Source of the DNA: Deferribacteres bacterium
GTDB lineage: Bacteria > Zhuqueibacterota > Zhuqueibacteria > Zhuqueibacterales > Geothermadaptataceae
Assembly (NCBI GenBank): GCA_020633655.1
Contig: JACKDF010000002.1
Span: forward strand, 75,895 to 139,894
Direction of reading: 5' to 3'
DNA length: 64,000 nt
Shown: positions 7,568 to 14,832 of the stretch, one piece after another
Layout of the letters: every line of letters begins with the position of its first letter
Numbering within the stretch: the first letter of the stretch is position 1
Notes under the pieces: model-generated
What the model was told of the DNA's origin: nothing
Databases searched by the model: none
The model's input: the letters and a program-made list of their open reading frames with translations, nothing else
Program-made: the position numbers and the translations under genes

Positions 7568-7700
7568 GTTTTTTTGAACACAGATGGGACGGATGAAGCG
7601 GATTGGTTTTGTACCGGGAAAGAATTGAGTTGTTGAGGTTTTTTGCGATACTCAAATAATCTGGGGTGGTGTCAAAAATCGTATAAAAAATTGAAAAAAA

Positions 7701-7729
7701 CTCTGACAGGGTTCCGAACCCTGTCAGAG
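7701..7729. repeat. Hairpin repeat family D copy 1 (ctctgacaggg-ttccgaa-ccctgtcagag)
   Basis: 11-bp perfect stem. A near-identical hairpin occurs at 26788..26816. Confidence 0.85.
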
Positions 7730-7759
7730 TTGGCACTACTCAATTTCAGGATGAACCGT

Positions 7760-10565: not shown

Positions 10566-11849
10566 ATGAAAAAGGTACTCCAAATTCTAATCATTATTTT
10601 TCTTTCTCATCCTTCTTTGCAAGCTCAGCAATGGGAATATTCCGGGCTGGTTGAAAGCAATTACCCGGTGAGTCAAATAGTTGTGGCGCCAGATTCCAAT
10701 GCTACAATTTATGCCATCTCTAAAGGGCTTGACCGGAGTATTGATGGTGGCAGTACATGGAAGACACTTATAGACGAGAAATGCACTCATGTCGCTGTTG
10801 ACCCACTTCATCCTGAGATTCTTTATGTTTCTTCAGAAGGGAAAATATTAAAATCAGGTGATAGTGGGGGAAGTTGGTCTGATGTCAGTCCGGATATGAC
10901 TGTTTATTCCAACTCAATAGGGCACATCGCAATTGACCCAGTTCAAACAGATACAATTTATGTAGGAATCTACAACCGATGGTGGCCTGGGGGATTCTAT
11001 CGGAGTTTCAATGGCGGTGTGAGTTGGGATTCGTTGTGGGCTGCAGCTTCAATAGTAACAATTGACCCTGTCGACAGGCATAATATCTTTGTAAATAAAT
11101 TTTCTTCGCAAGGCCTATGGAAAAGCAGCGATTTTGGAGTAAACTGGAAAACAATGAACACTGAATGGGCTACCATAAGAGGCATTGCTATTATTCCTGA
11201 AGATCCTAAAAGGATACTAATCGGAACCTACAAAAATGGCTTTTATCTTACACTTGATAATGGAAATTCATGGGAGCAAAAAAATGCAGGGTTAGATTCC
11301 TTAGTTCGGATAAAAAATATGCAAAGAGTAGATGGTCAATTTTTTGTTGCTTTGACAATTTTGGATGAGTTCGAGCAATATAAAAGTTCCGGTGGATATA
11401 CAAGTCCTATTGACACAATAAATTGGAAACCGATCGGAGACCCGGATTATTTCAAAGATATTAGCGCTATCTCAATCGCATATTCAAGGAGCTATGACAA
11501 GATTTTTGTCGGAACAGATTTAGGCGGTATTTATTCATATACGAAAACGAGTGTAGGCATAAAAAAAGATGAAATAGAGAATTTCTCCCGAGTTTTTCTT
11601 GAGCAAAATTATCCCAATCCTGTTAACCAAAATACAACAATTCGATACTCAATTCCAATATCAGGAAATGTCAAGCTTAGAGTATTCGATGTGCGGGGGA
11701 GAGAAATTGCAACTTTGGTAAATCGTATGCAGGAAACAGGGAGCTATGTAGTTGGCTTTAATACAACAGGTTTACCGAATGGGATCTATTTTTATAAATT
11801 TCAGACGGATGGCTTTGTCCAAACAAAGAAAATGATGCTTATTCGATAA
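10566..11849 (+). CDS. Secreted Asp-box beta-propeller-like protein with T9SS C-terminal sorting domain; paralogue 3 of 3
   Basis: Signal peptide MKKVLQILIIIFLSHPSLQAQQW. Asp-box-like SIDGGSTW, SGDSGGSW, SFNGGVSW, SSDFGVNW and LDNGNSW. C-terminal QNYPNPVNQNTTIRYSIP...GIYFYKF...KKMMLIR. Confidence 0.7.
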   Translation: MKKVLQILIIIFLSHPSLQAQQWEYSGLVESNYPVSQIVVAPDSNATIYAISKGLDRSIDGGSTWKTLIDEKCTHVAVDPLHPEILYVSSEGKILKSGDSGGSWSDVSPDMTVYSNSIGHIAIDPVQTDTIYVGIYNRWWPGGFYRSFNGGVSWDSLWAAASIVTIDPVDRHNIFVNKFSSQGLWKSSDFGVNWKTMNTEWATIRGIAIIPEDPKRILIGTYKNGFYLTLDNGNSWEQKNAGLDSLVRIKNMQRVDGQFFVALTILDEFEQYKSSGGYTSPIDTINWKPIGDPDYFKDISAISIAYSRSYDKIFVGTDLGGIYSYTKTSVGIKKDEIENFSRVFLEQNYPNPVNQNTTIRYSIPISGNVKLRVFDVRGREIATLVNRMQETGSYVVGFNTTGLPNGIYFYKFQTDGFVQTKKMMLIR

Positions 11850-11904
11850 TGAAATTTTTTCTTAATAGATAATATGACTTATCATTATTAAAAAGGAGTG
11901 AACC

Positions 11905-14832
11905 ATGGATCGAAAATTATTAACAAATATTATTCGGGTTAGCATTGTTTGGTTATCCATGTTTGTAGCTGTAGCATTTCCGCAGCAATCTGGTTATGAC
12001 AAACCAATAAAGCAAGGTTATTGGAAGGGTAATTTAGTTAGATATGTTGCCAATGAACTATGTATTTTCAAGAACGATGGCATTTTAAAATCTAATATAG
12101 AACATCTTTTGCTCCCTTATCATGGAAAGCTAAAAAGAGAATTTGATAAGTTCAATTTTTCTGTTGTTTCTTTTCCGGATACAGTTAATGTCCTTGATGT
12201 AGTGAAAAAACTAGCCAATTCACAGTTTATTAAAGCTATTGAACCCAATCTTATTCACACTATATTTTATACACCAAATGACCCTGATTTTCTCGCAGGT
12301 AAACAGTGGGGCCTCTATAATTACGGTCAAAATCCGCCTAATGGCACTTATGATGCCGACATAGACATATTAAAAGCATGGGATATTTCAATGGGGAATT
12401 GGGAGATTAAGGCTGGAGTAATGGATTCAGGGATACCATTGGATCAAAATGGCACTCATTCACACACTGATCTCAACGATCAAGCAAGGTTTTTATTGGG
12501 ATTAAATTTTGTCGATGGTTTATCAGTTAAAGATGGGTATGGGCACGGGACGCATGTGCTGGGTATTATTGGTGCTGAAACAAACAATAATGAAGGAATA
12601 GCAGGTGTGGCGAATCGATGCCGATATTTGGTCATTAAGTCAATAGATAATACTGGATATGGTAATGATGAAGATTTTCGAGATGGTGTTTTATATGCAG
12701 TGGATAATGGTGTTGATATTATCAATTATAGCGCAGGAAATCCGGATAGCTGGGTTGCTACTACTGCCCAAATTGAAGCTGTTAACTATGCTCGCGATAA
12801 CGATGTACTTCTTATAGCATCAGCAGGAAATGAAGGTGCCCCCTCAAGCGTACGATATCCAGCAGCCTTTGCAGGAACTTATGATAATGTTATCTGTGTT
12901 TCTTCTACGGATGCGGATGACAATATATCCGATTTTAGCAATTATAATCAATATCAAACAACTGTTTTCGCCCCAGGTGGTCAGGGTCTCCCTCACAGTG
13001 ATAACGATATTTATTCAACTCTTCCAGGTTATGGAAATGATCCAAGTTATGGCTATATGGCTGGAACATCACAAGCTGCTCCATTTGTTTCCGGTGTTGC
13101 TGCATTGATTTTATCAATAAAATCTACACTTTCCCCATTACAAGTAAAAACGATTCTAGTAACGACAGCCGATGATTTATCTGGGCCCCCACAGGGACGC
13201 CTCAACGCCTATGAAGCTTTAAAATACACTATCGAAAACCATGGCGGAGTTATTGGCGGCAATGGCGCGACAGTTACTTTTCATGAAGACATCACTATTA
13301 ATAGCGGTGTTGAGCTGACCATCGCTTCCGGGACGACAGTCGAGTTTAAACCTGATAAAAAGCTCATTGTAAAAGGCACCCTCAATGCGGATGACGTAGA
13401 GTTTGAATCCACTTCAAGCTATGGCGAATGGGGCGGGCTCGTTTTTGACGGCAGTTCATGCTCCTCTTCAGAGCTTTATGAATGCACGATTGAGAATGCC
13501 ACAGTCGGTATTGCAATTACAGGATCAAACGCATCACCGACAATTGAAAAATGCCTTGTTCAGAATTGTGATAGTTACCCTTTAAAATTAACATCGGATT
13601 GCACACCAAATATTTACAACAACAAATTCTATAGTAATAGTTCTCCTGCAGTGTACATCTCCTCAGCAGACGGTGATTTTAGCGATAATGAATTTCGCAC
13701 TTCCAGCGGCACGGCCTATGGCGTTTATGTTACTGGTGCCAGCTCGGCGCCCGATTTTGATTCAAACGAAGGAATAAATGGCAATCTTTTCGATCTCTCA
13801 GCGATTTCTTCCCATGGAGCATACATCGCAGGCGGTTACCCGGAATTTGGTGACAATGGCCCCCATGACGGTTTAAATGATTTTATAAATCGAGGTACTG
13901 ATAAGTACATTTATAATAATACCGGAAGTACGGTTGACGCAGAAGTGAATTATTGGGGAGGCACGCCACAATCAACCTGGTTTAGTGGCAGTGTCGATTT
14001 TTCACCCTATGAATCATCAGCAAACGGCGCTGGGCCAACATGGAAAGTAGCCTCGAATCCTTATGCGACAGGGGTTGATTTATTTGAAGAAGGGAAATAT
14101 GACCAAGCTTTGGCAGAGTTAAAATCTACCTTGCTGCAGAATTCAGAGCTGGAAAACGCGCCCGGCGCTGTTTTTAAAATGGCGAAATCGGCGCTTAAAT
14201 TAGGCAGGCTTGCAAGCGAGGCAGATTTCTTACATGATTTGCTCAATTCATCAAATAGTGAAGTTCGTTACATATCTCGTGCGTGGTTGGCGTATTTATA
14301 TGCAATGCTTGGGGATGCAGAAGAGGCGGAAAAGCTTGCACTACAAGCACCGGAAGGAACGAGGGCACAAAGAGCGGAACTTTTATCCGTGGTAAGCTAT
14401 TATATCACAACAGGTAAAGAAAAATCCGCTGAACGTATCGCACAGTTAATGCGTGAAAAATATAGGGATGATTACCTGGAGTTTGATTTGGAAGTCGCTT
14501 TGAAAACGAAGATCGATTTTCCAAAAAGTTTGGGAAAAACAGTCGCGGATGTACCGGAATCCTTCCATTTTATTAATTATCCCAATCCATTCAATCCTGC
14601 GACGACAATTCAGTTCTATCTGCCTGAAGAGAAAACAGTCACATTGCAAATATTTGATATTCGAGGGCGACTGATACATACGCTATTTGATAGGGAAATG
14701 ACAACGGGGATACATTCTGTTCGCTGGAATGGAAAGAATAGTATGGGTCATGAGATATCCGCGGGTTTGTATTTTGCAAAATTAAAAACAAATGACAGGA
14801 TAGATACGATTAAATTGCTGCTGGTGCGTTAG
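11905..14832 (+). CDS. Subtilisin-family (S8) serine protease with parallel beta-helix repeats, a TPR-like helical region and T9SS C-terminal sorting domain
   Basis: Catalytic triad motifs GVMDSGI (Asp), HGTHVLGIIG (His) and GTSQAAPFVSGVAAL (Ser). Repetitive I/V-x-N-C/A segments are typical of right-handed beta-helices. C-terminal INYPNPFNPATTIQFYLP...GLYFAKL...IKLLLVR. Confidence 0.85.
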   Translation: MDRKLLTNIIRVSIVWLSMFVAVAFPQQSGYDKPIKQGYWKGNLVRYVANELCIFKNDGILKSNIEHLLLPYHGKLKREFDKFNFSVVSFPDTVNVLDVVKKLANSQFIKAIEPNLIHTIFYTPNDPDFLAGKQWGLYNYGQNPPNGTYDADIDILKAWDISMGNWEIKAGVMDSGIPLDQNGTHSHTDLNDQARFLLGLNFVDGLSVKDGYGHGTHVLGIIGAETNNNEGIAGVANRCRYLVIKSIDNTGYGNDEDFRDGVLYAVDNGVDIINYSAGNPDSWVATTAQIEAVNYARDNDVLLIASAGNEGAPSSVRYPAAFAGTYDNVICVSSTDADDNISDFSNYNQYQTTVFAPGGQGLPHSDNDIYSTLPGYGNDPSYGYMAGTSQAAPFVSGVAALILSIKSTLSPLQVKTILVTTADDLSGPPQGRLNAYEALKYTIENHGGVIGGNGATVTFHEDITINSGVELTIASGTTVEFKPDKKLIVKGTLNADDVEFESTSSYGEWGGLVFDGSSCSSSELYECTIENATVGIAITGSNASPTIEKCLVQNCDSYPLKLTSDCTPNIYNNKFYSNSSPAVYISSADGDFSDNEFRTSSGTAYGVYVTGASSAPDFDSNEGINGNLFDLSAISSHGAYIAGGYPEFGDNGPHDGLNDFINRGTDKYIYNNTGSTVDAEVNYWGGTPQSTWFSGSVDFSPYESSANGAGPTWKVASNPYATGVDLFEEGKYDQALAELKSTLLQNSELENAPGAVFKMAKSALKLGRLASEADFLHDLLNSSNSEVRYISRAWLAYLYAMLGDAEEAEKLALQAPEGTRAQRAELLSVVSYYITTGKEKSAERIAQLMREKYRDDYLEFDLEVALKTKIDFPKSLGKTVADVPESFHFINYPNPFNPATTIQFYLPEEKTVTLQIFDIRGRLIHTLFDREMTTGIHSVRWNGKNSMGHEISAGLYFAKLKTNDRIDTIKLLLVR

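What the first reader, a model, noticed from the sequence alone, without database searches (positions are those of the whole stretch)
7643..14832. Cassette-like array: three T9SS cargo paralogues with a shared 5' module and sorting domain but swapped cargo, followed by a T9SS S8 protease
- **Arrangement:** three consecutive genes (7760-9082, 9105-10535, 10566-11849) are separated by only 22 and 30 nt.
- **Shared 5' module:** each begins with an almost identical module of about 110 nt. It spans the RBS (tttcaggagg), the signal peptide MKK(I/V)L..IFLSHP(S/F)L.AQQW and the first mature residues. My hand count gives 97/113 nt identical between copies 1 and 2; copy 3 is more diverged.
- **Shared 3' module:** each ends in the same type of T9SS sorting domain.
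- **Different cargo:** the sequence in between is an Asp-box propeller, a 26-aa YD-like repeat array, and a second diverged propeller.
- **Downstream gene:** 55 nt further on is an S8 protease with a beta-helix and the same sorting domain.
- **Interpretation:** conserved ends with variable middles are what you would expect from recombinational cargo shuffling, or from shared translational or secretion control of a co-secreted set. I know of no described system with this layout.
Basis: partly seen in the sequence, partly recalled or inferred. Interest (0 to 1): 0.7.

Follow-up and report, generated by a model that had tools for sequence, protein, structure and literature searches.

The report
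Tandem secreted-protein genes sharing a transplanted leader
Three neighbouring secreted-protein genes next to a protease gene share one start-of-gene module because two are old duplicates and the third acquired that module by recombination; this is ordinary mosaic gene evolution, not a new cargo-shuffling system.

Summary
Genes g1 (7760-9082), g2 (9105-10535) and g3 (10566-11849) lie 22 and 30 nt apart, 55 nt upstream of an S8 protease gene. All four proteins carry a T9SS type A sorting domain (CTD).

- **5' module:** it covers the RBS, the signal peptide and about 13 mature codons. It is 97/113 nt identical between g1 and g2, and 77/113 against g3. Identity falls to background immediately after it.
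- **Origin of the module:** it is native to the beta-propeller family of g1 and g3. Homologues in other Calditrichota/KSB1 genomes keep ..LQAQQWQxVGLEG... It is foreign to the YD/DUF3836-repeat family of g2, where 0 of 119 homologues have it. So g2 is a chimera.
- **3' module:** this is only the generic CTD.
- **Conserved core:** a propeller-plus-S8-protease gene pair recurs in five lineages. The window holds a lineage-specific expansion of that pair.
- **Related genome:** one MAG has g3'-propeller-S8, with sharp recombination breakpoints inside the CTD and, less firmly, inside the signal peptide.
- **What is missing:** no recombinase, no inverted repeats, no silent cassettes, and no further leader copies in public data.

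Recombination shaped this locus, but a dedicated shuffling system is not supported.

The parts
7699..7731 (.). Perfect 16-bp inverted repeat (hairpin) between the upstream BNR_2 gene and g1. It is terminator-like when read on the minus strand and marks the upstream edge of the array.
   Evidence: I14; unique in the window
7742..7852 (+). 5' module copy 1: RBS TTTCAGGATG, signal peptide MKKILLLFGVIFLSHPSLLA, and first mature residues QQWRLVGLDGR.
   Evidence: D1
7760..9082 (+). g1: a 440-aa BNR/Sortilin-type beta-propeller with a T9SS type A CTD (CTD about 8846-9079). It belongs to the propeller clade that sits next to the S8 protease in other genomes.
9087..9197 (+). 5' module copy 2, on g2. 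It is 87% identical to copy 1 and 83% identical to the L001 propeller leader. It is foreign to the g2 protein family.
9105..10535 (+). g2: a 476-aa chimera. It has a propeller-type leader (residues 1-34), a low-confidence linker (pLDDT below 50 over residues 20-74), nine 29-aa YD/DUF3836-type repeats (about 9348-10172) and a CTD (about 10299-10532).
10406..10594 (+). Junction segment: the 3' half of the g2 CTD, the 30-nt spacer, the RBS and the first half of the g3 signal peptide. It is 95% identical (190/200) to L001, where it joins a g3-like gene to a different propeller. This is an inferred gene-conversion tract.
10548..10658 (+). 5' module copy 3, on g3. It is 68% identical to copy 1.
10566..11849 (+). 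g3: a 427-aa diverged propeller paralogue, 30% aa identical to g1, with a CTD (about 11610-11837). Its counterpart in L001 is 66% identical over the body.
11905..14832 (+). S8 subtilase of 975 aa, with an N-terminal prodomain-like region, a catalytic domain, a right-handed beta-helix, a TPR-like region and a CTD (about 14578-14820). It has its own unrelated signal peptide. It is the conserved partner of the propeller gene.

Best explanation
**What the locus is.** It is a lineage-specific expansion of a conserved two-gene unit. That unit is a T9SS-secreted BNR/Sortilin-type beta-propeller gene directly upstream of a T9SS-secreted S8 protease gene.

**How it arose.**
- In this lineage the propeller gene was duplicated in tandem, giving g1 and g3 (30% aa identical).
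- An ordinary YD/DUF3836-repeat T9SS cargo gene, g2, sits between them.
- The shared 5' module is the propeller family's own start. It comprises the RBS, the signal peptide, an A|QQ cleavage region, and the first beta-strand (W-x-x-V-G-L).
- The module remained unusually similar among the paralogues through short-tract gene conversion across gene boundaries.
- It was copied onto g2, or fused to it by an in-frame deletion. This replaced g2's own RBS, signal peptide and about 13 mature codons.
- Signal peptides are interchangeable, so the swap is tolerated. The propeller strand it carries is a disordered vestige in g2.

**The 3' ends.** These are just the generic CTD that every T9SS type A cargo carries.

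**Expression and export (inferred, not shown).** The four genes are probably co-transcribed. Each product is probably exported by Sec and then by the T9SS.
For: **Module identity.**
- g1/g2 share 97/113 nt, then identity falls to background.
- For g1/g3, the module is 73% identical at nt level (third positions 68%), against 43% (third positions 31%) in the body. The module therefore has a more recent common ancestry than the gene bodies.
- g1 and g2 differ at 13 codons in the module, 9 nonsynonymous and 4 synonymous. This fits recent copying better than purifying selection.

**Native to the propellers.** Homologues P0124-P0129 (46-52% identical) all begin ..FP(H/Q)xL(Q/H)(A/S)QQWQxVGLEG... The AF2 model of g1 places residues 24-27 in a strand, and mean pLDDT is 84 for residues 21-30 and 94 for residues 31-40.

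**Foreign to g2.**
- None of 119 g2 homologues has the module.
- Family homology starts at about residue 60-90 of g2, at equivalent positions in the homologues.
- g2 residues 20-74 have pLDDT below 50.

**Conserved propeller-S8 pair.** It is seen in L007-L010, L011-L013, L014, L120 and L001.

**Recombination in a relative (L001).**
- The L001 sequence is 96% identical to the g3 CTD (130/135).
- It then switches to 95% identity with the g2 CTD 3' half, the spacer and the g3 leader (190/200).
- It then becomes g1/g2-like.
- The first breakpoint gives Fisher p of 5e-19 and the second 6e-4, both at the best-fitting split.

**Not a generic leader.** Other CTD proteins in the window lack it. A leader profile searched against 1.84 billion representatives returns only the L001 propeller.

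**Independent assembly.** A Logan contig is identical to window 10421-15036.

**No dedicated machinery seen.** There is no recombinase in the neighbourhood. No convincing plus-strand terminator was found inside the array; the few plus-strand terminator-like hits are weak (5-7-bp stems), lie within genes, and their number is no higher than in shuffled sequence.
Against: - Only one related genome (L001) carries both g3-type and leader-bearing genes. Its contig starts inside g3', so the order of events cannot be reconstructed.
- L001 is a MAG contig, and its identity to the window is patchy, from 45% to 99%. Part of the mosaic could reflect inter-lineage exchange or chimeric assembly rather than intragenomic conversion.
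- The g1-g2 junction has no independent assembly support.
- The rest of the window's genome could not be searched for further leader copies.
- Gene conversion versus in-frame deletion fusion for g2 cannot be distinguished.
- Signal-peptide cleavage, operon structure and T9SS dependence were not tested.
Confidence: 0.7

Rival explanations
1. Active cargo shuffling. The leader and the CTD act as recombination handles. Cargo bodies are recurrently exchanged, permuted, deleted or duplicated within the operon, which diversifies the set of proteins secreted alongside the protease.
For: - L001 has a different order (g3'-propeller-S8), with a sharp breakpoint inside the CTD and a weaker one inside the signal peptide.
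- The L001 propeller and g1 are only 41% identical in the body. That suggests different paralogues were kept in the two lineages.
- There is an abrupt identity jump inside the S8 gene as well.
- The Logan contig begins at 10421, about 15-20 nt from the CTD breakpoint. That is compatible with a branch in the assembly graph at that point.
Against: - No recombinase or integrase is present in the Pfam-scanned flanking genes.
- All repeats are direct.
- The longest exact matches are 26 nt at the 5' end and 14 nt in the CTDs. CTD nt identity is about 50% for most pairs.
- Only one non-propeller cargo carries the leader.
- The leader is absent from 1.84 billion representative proteins apart from L001, and from JGI metagenome contigs.
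- In L011, neighbouring T9SS cargo genes do not share leaders.
Confidence: 0.12
2. Selected common control element. The module is kept similar because it provides shared translational or secretion control. Possible forms are an SD-sequestering hairpin, a special signal peptide, or an N-terminal QQW tag needed by a co-secreted set.
For: - The RBS and the first codons are nearly identical. GGAG can pair with CUCC at codons 5-6 in all four copies.
- The ..L-x-A-Q-Q-W..G-L.. motif is conserved at protein level across genera in the propeller family.
- A Gln at position +1 matches the Bacteroidetes Q-rule (PMC5837995). That paper reports the rule does not hold across the whole FCB group.
Against: - Fold z-scores are -1.7, -1.5, +0.3 and -0.2. 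The covariation term is +0.94 kcal/mol (unfavourable).
- There is no Rfam match.
- g1/g2 differences are mostly nonsynonymous.
- The co-located S8 protease and the other T9SS cargo genes lack the module.
- In g2 the mature part of the module is predicted disordered.
Confidence: 0.1
3. Assembly artefact. The repeated module or the chimeric g2 was created by metagenome misassembly across similar sequences or co-occurring strains.
For: - The window comes from a MAG.
- Exact g1 and g2 proteins are not on record in independent assemblies.
- The Logan contig ends inside the g2 CTD.
Against: - The three module copies are distinct sequences, differing at 16 and 36 of 113 positions. They therefore cannot come from collapsing or copying one repeat.
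- Shared exact words are at most 26 nt, shorter than typical assembly k-mers.
- All ORFs are intact and in frame.
- Positions 10421-15036 are reproduced exactly by an independent assembly.
- NCBI proteins identical to g1, g2 and g3 exist on a 573-kb contig.
Confidence: 0.05

Closest known systems
Chimeric paralogous outer-membrane or surface protein genes made by intragenomic gene conversion (Helicobacter pylori babA/babB/babC and sabA/sabB; Treponema tprG/I/J chimeras)
   Same: - Paralogous secreted-protein genes have similar 5' and 3' ends and different middles.
- Recombination in the conserved ends yields chimeras, and locus content differs between strains (PMC3960876, PMC3656149).
- Here g2 and the L001 junction are such chimeras.
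   Different: - In those systems the partners are members of one family and share long stretches of high identity. The exchange also has a demonstrated phenotypic role.
- Here the leader crossed onto an unrelated protein family.
- Identity tracts are short, at most 26 nt exact.
- The genes are adjacent in one probable operon.
- No phenotype or ongoing switching is shown.
T9SS type A cargo genes (Sec signal peptide plus C-terminal sorting domain, TIGR04183/PF18962), including Porphyromonas gingivalis gingipain/hagA genes that share recombining adhesin modules (the gingipain point is from my own knowledge, not checked here)
   Same: - All four proteins have an N-terminal signal-peptide-like leader and a CTD above threshold.
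- They form a cluster of T9SS cargo genes that includes a protease.
   Different: - The organism is an uncultured Calditrichota/KSB1-like lineage, not Bacteroidota.
- The shared module is the leader, not an internal adhesin domain.
- T9SS dependence is inferred from the domains only.
Modular effector families with a conserved N-terminal leader and swapped C-terminal cargo (oomycete CRN effectors, PMC3726527; bacterial Rhs/CDI polymorphic toxins, the latter from my own knowledge)
   Same: A conserved secretion-related N-terminus is joined to different downstream bodies by recombination.
   Different: - Those families have many members and a defined recombination motif. The bacterial ones also have immunity genes and orphan cassettes.
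- Here there are three genes, two of them plain paralogues.
- There are no orphan fragments and no immunity genes.
Dispase autolysis-inducing protein (DAIP) and Ycf48-type seven-bladed BNR propellers
   Same: The g1 model matches Ycf48 (TM normalised to target about 0.7) and DAIP, a propeller that binds a protease (TM normalised to target 0.56-0.59). This is a lead for why a propeller gene is always paired with the S8 gene.
   Different: Sequence identity is only 13-16%. GH74 and sortilin propellers score equally well. No interaction with the S8 protease has been tested.

Membership tests
T9SS type A cargo | C-terminal sorting domain matching TIGR04183 / PF18962 above the curated cut-off | tested here: met
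   TIGR04183 scores are g1 40.0, g2 47.0, g3 48.0 and S8 40.1 bits, against a cut-off of 23. PF18962 scores are 35, 43.4, 42.1 and 28.6 bits, against a cut-off of 27.
T9SS type A cargo | N-terminal Sec signal peptide | tested here: inconclusive
   By inspection only. Each leader has an MKK n-region, a hydrophobic core and an ..L-x-A|QQ region. No signal-peptide predictor was available. AF2 gives a helix at residues 2-13.
T9SS type A cargo | T9SS machinery (PorV/SprA/PorU etc.) present in the genome, and secretion dependent on it | not tested
   The window was not screened for T9SS components, and the rest of the genome is not available.
BNR / Sortilin-Vps10-type beta-propeller (g1, g3) | Pfam match above the gathering score, and a propeller fold | tested here: met
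   PF15902 scores are 45.2 bits (g1) and 42.2 bits (g3), against a cut-off of 33. The g1 model has pLDDT 81.9 and matches GH74, Ycf48 and sortilin propellers at E of 1e-11 to 1e-12.
F510_1955 family glycosylhydrolase (NF045728) | NCBIfam equivalog cut-off of 175 bits | tested here: not met
   g1 scores 73.1 bits and g3 65.5 bits. These are partial matches only, so no enzymatic assignment is made.
DUF3836 / YD (RHS-like) repeat proteins (g2) | Family HMM above cut-off and a repeated beta-hairpin sheet | tested here: met
   PF12930 scores 45 bits against a cut-off of 25. TIGR01643 scores 21.4 against 15.8. PF05593 scores 21.7, just under its cut-off of 22. There are nine 29-aa repeats. The model has pLDDT above 90 across the repeats and matches Rhs cores and DUF3836 crystal structures.
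Rhs / polymorphic toxin | Complete Rhs shell with a C-terminal toxin domain, an autoproteolysis motif and an adjacent immunity gene | tested here: not met
   g2 is 476 aa and ends in a T9SS CTD, with no toxin domain. TM-scores to Rhs shells are only 0.1-0.3. The next gene is a propeller.
Peptidase S8 (subtilase) | PF00082 match and the Asp/His/Ser catalytic motifs | tested here: met
   PF00082 scores 161.9 bits. The motifs DSGI, HGTHV and GTSQAAP are visible in the translation.
Shufflon / invertible-segment systems | Site-specific recombinase gene adjacent, and inverted repeats flanking the segments | tested here: not met
   No recombinase domain was found in the genes scanned between 706 and 23867. 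The shared modules are direct repeats on one strand.
Antigenic-variation cassette systems (one expression site plus silent cassettes) | Promoterless or truncated donor cassettes that lack their own start | tested here: not met
   All three genes are complete ORFs, each with its own RBS, ATG, leader and CTD.

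The most novel reading that the evidence does not exclude
The CTD-spacer-leader junction (the 3' half of one gene's sorting domain, the 22-30-nt spacer, the RBS, and the 5' half of the next signal peptide) could behave as a portable, homology-driven 'splice unit'. It would let T9SS cargo genes of unrelated families be inserted, permuted or lost within a protease operon, and exchanged between lineages. That would make it an integron-like cassette logic working without a recombinase. Three observations do not exclude this reading:
- The junction is 95% conserved between two otherwise diverged genomes.
- The block has an island-like low GC content.
- An assembly-graph break lies next to the breakpoint.
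Probability: 0.08. Interest if true: 0.7.

Novelty: new member of a known kind. Interest (0 to 1): 0.3.

Why it matters
- **A clean example of leader transfer.** It shows how secretion signals move between unrelated genes. A whole RBS, signal peptide and first structural strand from a propeller gene now drives a YD-repeat protein. The strand is left as a disordered vestige.
- **A caution for annotation.** Similar leaders on neighbouring genes can mislead homology-based annotation and operon or paralogue inference in MAGs.
- **A conserved gene pair.** The work exposes a propeller-plus-S8-protease pair in Calditrichota/KSB1-like bacteria. These groups are thought to degrade detrital protein. The role of the propeller partner is unknown and testable. 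It may bind substrate or the protease, by analogy with DAIP.
- **What it does not show.** It does not reveal a new genetic mechanism.

Tried and rejected
**Searches that returned little or nothing.**
- Exact-protein look-ups of g1, g2 and P0001 found nothing on record.
- The S8 look-up found only the Logan contig L121.
- A word-indexed protein search with the 42-aa leader alignment returned no candidates. That search was wasted.
- The four-sequence leader alignment against JGI metagenome contigs gave 600 pattern matches, none confirmed.
- The DNA pattern for AQQWxxxGL[ED]G in metagenome contigs gave 104 matches. Only one was a real family member, and it was an already known contig.
- The genome-contig scan with the S8 protein returned only the L001 contig as a close relative. 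The window's own genome is not in that collection.

**Ideas tested and rejected.**
- An RNA element in the module. There was no Rfam hit, the folds were not significant, and there was no covariation.
- g2's CTD deriving from a propeller gene, which would mean both ends were swapped. This is rejected because the g2 CTD is about equally similar (about 60% aa) to many unrelated CTDs, including those of its own family.
- Simple unequal crossing-over between g1 and g3 as the origin of g2. This is rejected because it would give a hybrid with a g3 5' end and a g1 3' end and a propeller body, the opposite of what is seen.
- Loss of a third propeller by CTD-CTD recombination. There is no trace of it, since the 3' half of g3's CTD is unlike that of the L001 propeller.
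- TRF found no DNA-level tandem repeat in g2. The repeats are visible only at protein level.

Full report
**1.

ORF listing gives g1 at 7760-9082 (the longer TTG-started ORF from 7643 is not the likely start), g2 at 9105-10535, g3 at 10566-11849 and an S8 gene at 11905-14832. All are on the + strand, with gaps of 22, 30 and 55 nt.

An ungapped comparison anchored on the ATG, from -20 to +92, gives these identities:

| Pair | Module (-20 to +92) | Next 108 nt |
|---|---|---|
| g1/g2 | 97/113 | 37/108 |
| g1/g3 | 77/113 | 27/108 |
| g2/g3 | 77/113 | 32/108 |

- The repeat finder recovers the same three-copy family (7742-7852, 9087-9197, 10548-10658).
- A 20-nt core occurs three times in the 64-kb window, against none expected by chance.
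- The S8 gene does not share the module.

Pfam and NCBIfam give the following:
- All four proteins pass the T9SS type A sorting domain.
- g1 and g3 are Sortilin-Vps10/BNR propellers.
- g2 is a DUF3836 / YD-like repeat protein.
- The fourth is Peptidase_S8 plus Beta_helix plus a CTD.

- g2 has nine repeats of exactly 29 aa, not 26.
- The '3' module' is nothing more specific than the CTD that every T9SS type A cargo has. CTD nt identity is 48-54% for all pairs, including those with S8. The exception is g2/g3 at 69%. The g2 CTD is about 60% aa identical to dozens of unrelated CTDs.

**2. The 5' module belongs to the propellers and is foreign to g2.**

g1 and g3 are full-length paralogues: 30% aa identity, E = 4e-61. 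A profile of these propellers finds a tight family, P0124-P0129, at 46-52% identity to g1, from MAGs labelled Calditrichaeota or KSB1. Every full-length member begins ..F(L/F)FP(H/Q)xL(Q/H)(A/S)QQWQxVGLEG...

So the end of the signal peptide, the A|QQ region and W-x-x-V-G-L are the propeller family's own N-terminus. The AF2 model of g1 puts residues 24-27 in a beta-strand; mean pLDDT is 84 for residues 21-30 and 94 for residues 31-40. The fold matches Ycf48, GH74, sortilin and DAIP-type propellers.

The evidence for g2 points the other way:
- The g2 family is large, with 1515 hits, mostly from Ignavibacteria/Chlorobi-type MAGs.
- None of the 119 listed homologues has the AQQW leader.
- Family homology begins around g2 residue 60-90, at equivalent positions in the homologues.
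- In the g2 model, residues 20-74 have pLDDT below 50. The repeats and the CTD are above 90.
- The repeats match Rhs-type sheets and DUF3836 crystal structures.

g2 is therefore an ordinary family member. Its RBS, signal peptide and first 13 or so mature codons have been replaced by a propeller-type 5' end. The transferred strand is left as a vestige.

**3. The module is younger than the genes it sits on.**

Codon-aligned comparison of g1 and g3 gives:

| Region | nt identity | Third-position identity |
|---|---|---|
| Module | 73% | 68% |
| Propeller body | 43% | 31% |
| CTD | 49% | not used here |

Between g1 and g2, 13 of 33 module codons differ, 9 nonsynonymous and 4 synonymous. High nt identity with mostly nonsynonymous differences points to recent copying, that is gene conversion or recombination. 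It does not point to strong purifying selection.

No RNA-level explanation was found:
- There is no Rfam match.
- Fold z-scores range from -1.7 to +0.3.
- The covariation term is +0.94 kcal/mol (unfavourable).

**4. What is conserved elsewhere is a propeller-S8 pair.**

Genomic contexts of the homologues show a propeller gene of about 440 aa directly upstream of an S8-beta-helix(-CTD) gene of 930-1005 aa. This is seen in five lineages:
- L007-L010, from KSB1.
- L011-L013.
- L014.
- L120.
- L001.

One homologue, in L119, lacks the protease. In L011, three other T9SS-type genes precede the pair, and their leaders are unrelated. The window's g1-g2-g3 arrangement is thus a lineage-specific elaboration of a simpler conserved unit.

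**5. A related genome shows recombination at exactly these ends.**

L001 is a 10-kb contig from a Calditrichaeota MAG. It carries a partial g3-like gene (66% body identity to g3). Next comes a leader-bearing propeller, which is 41% identical to g1 in the body and about 46-50% to the P0124 group. Then comes the S8 gene.

Aligning the L001 gene boundary with the three window boundaries shows a three-part mosaic:
- It is 130/135 identical to the first part of the g3 CTD.
- It is then 190/200 identical to the second half of the g2 CTD, the g2/g3 spacer and the first half of the g3 leader.
- It is then most like the g2 (and g1) leader's second half, at 48/59.

Informative sites split as follows, at the best-fitting breakpoint in each case:

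| Breakpoint | Window position | Sites left of break | Sites right of break | Fisher p |
|---|---|---|---|---|
| In the CTD | 10399-10406 | 52:2 | 1:29 | 5e-19 |
| In the signal peptide | 10590-10598 | 10:1 | 5:15 | 6e-4 |

The simplest reading (inference) is a gene-conversion tract of about 190 nt across a gene boundary. It would have been copied from a g2/g3-type junction onto a g3/propeller junction.

The g2 leader is closer to the L001 propeller leader (83%) than to g1's counterpart in that comparison (70%). That fits g2's leader coming from a propeller paralogue that the window has since lost or never retained. Whether this happened by conversion or by an in-frame deletion fusing that paralogue's start to g2 cannot be decided.

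**6. Caveats on L001 and the assemblies.**

- Identity between L001 and the window is very patchy, from 45-60% up to 97-99% in 60-120-nt bins.
- Inside the S8 gene, identity jumps from about 65% to about 99% at a single site, and L001 also has a nonsense change there.
- Synteny between the two genomes ends about 94 nt after the S8 stop.
- In both genomes the block is AT-rich relative to its flanks. The window block is 38.8% GC with GC3 of 32-34%, against GC3 of 50-58% in neighbouring genes. L001 is 39.4% against 48.1%.

These features suggest exchange of this block, or parts of it, between lineages. They could also include some chimeric assembly.

For the window itself, a Logan contig from SRR12358676 is identical to 10421-15036. 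The g1/g2 junction has no second assembly. The three module copies differ at 16-36 of 113 positions and share at most 26 exact nt. They are therefore not an assembly duplication.

**7. Is the leader generic, or part of a wider system?**

- In the window, the S8 protein and the two other CTD proteins (30665-34504 and 40138-44133) have unrelated leaders.
- A profile of the three leaders, scored against 1.84 billion representative proteins, finds only the L001 propeller. The other four hits are multi-stretch low-complexity matches.
- JGI metagenome contigs hold no confirmed copy of the window-type leader.
- A degenerate DNA pattern for AQQWxxxGL[ED]G finds only one already known propeller.
- The rest of this genome could not be searched. 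It is not in the genome collection.
- No recombinase, integrase or transposase domain is present among the Pfam-scanned genes from 706 to 23867. Integrase and IS110 genes do lie beside the pair in L014 and L120.
- All repeats are direct. No truncated or silent cassettes exist.

**8. Verdict.**

Its recombination idea is right as evolutionary history, but not as a 'system'. The locus is a probable operon of four T9SS cargo genes: a conserved propeller-protease pair, a propeller duplication, and a YD-repeat gene that picked up the propeller leader.

The closest known phenomena are chimeric paralogous surface-protein genes made by gene conversion. Examples are H. pylori bab and sab (PMC3960876) and Treponema tpr (PMC3656149). 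The Gln after the predicted cleavage site matches the Bacteroidetes Q-rule (PMC5837995), but that paper limits the rule to Bacteroidetes, so I treat it only as a lead.

Interest is modest. The cross-family leader transfer with a vestigial strand, and the conserved propeller-S8 pairing, are neat findings. They are not surprising in kind.

Noticed in passing
window 7643-14926 versus flanks; L001 1-5585 versus 5586-10126: The whole array-plus-protease block is AT-rich relative to its surroundings. GC is 38.8% with GC3 of 32-34%, against GC3 of 50-58% in flanking genes. L001 shows the same pattern (39.4% versus 48.1%). Synteny between the two genomes is confined to the block and ends about 94 nt after the S8 stop. 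This looks like a horizontally acquired or exchanged island, although other parts of the window are also below 40% GC.
   Followed up: partly
L001 about 3875-3885 (window about 13215-13225): In L001 the S8 gene is cut by a single T-to-A nonsense change (GCT TTA to GCT TAA). This is exactly where nt identity to the window jumps from about 65% (catalytic domain) to about 99% (beta-helix domain, about 430 nt). It is another abrupt mosaic boundary, or an assembly chimera.
   Followed up: partly
window 7699-7731: A perfect 16-bp inverted repeat lies just upstream of g1. It reads as a strong intrinsic terminator on the minus strand (T-run after the stem), although no minus-strand gene lies to its right. 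It is unique in the window.
   Followed up: partly
L007-L014, L120 (propeller plus S8 pairs): A propeller gene of about 440 aa directly upstream of an S8-beta-helix protease gene recurs across Calditrichota/KSB1-like contigs. The g1 model also matches DAIP, a propeller that binds a protease, so a functional partnership is possible. Mobile-element genes sit next to the pair in L014 (four integrase ORFs) and L120 (an IS110 transposase).
   Followed up: partly
L121 (same sequence as window 10421-15036): The independent Logan contig starts at window 10421, only about 15-20 nt from the CTD recombination breakpoint inferred from L001 (10399-10406). The window's own paralogues share no 31-mer there. 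The contig end might therefore reflect a variant junction in the sample, or simply low coverage.
   Followed up: no
window 15008-15033: An 11-bp perfect palindrome, GGGCAGGGGAT/ATCCCCTGCCC, lies in the 263-nt spacer after the S8 gene. It could be a terminator or a binding site. The consensus scan did not call it.
   Followed up: no
window as a whole (NCBI label of P0001, P0121, P0123): The source MAG is labelled 'Deferribacteres bacterium'. All close relatives of these genes are labelled Calditrichaeota or KSB1, and the proteins carry FCB-type T9SS sorting domains. The label may be a misclassification.
   Followed up: no
window 2672-7567 and 18615-20324: The neighbourhood is rich in glycan-degrading functions: a GH38 alpha-mannosidase, a BNR_2 sialidase-like protein directly upstream of g1, and a fucose isomerase. 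It also contains a penicillin-amidase-like gene and a PhoPQ-related gene. This fits a secreted-hydrolase region.
   Followed up: no
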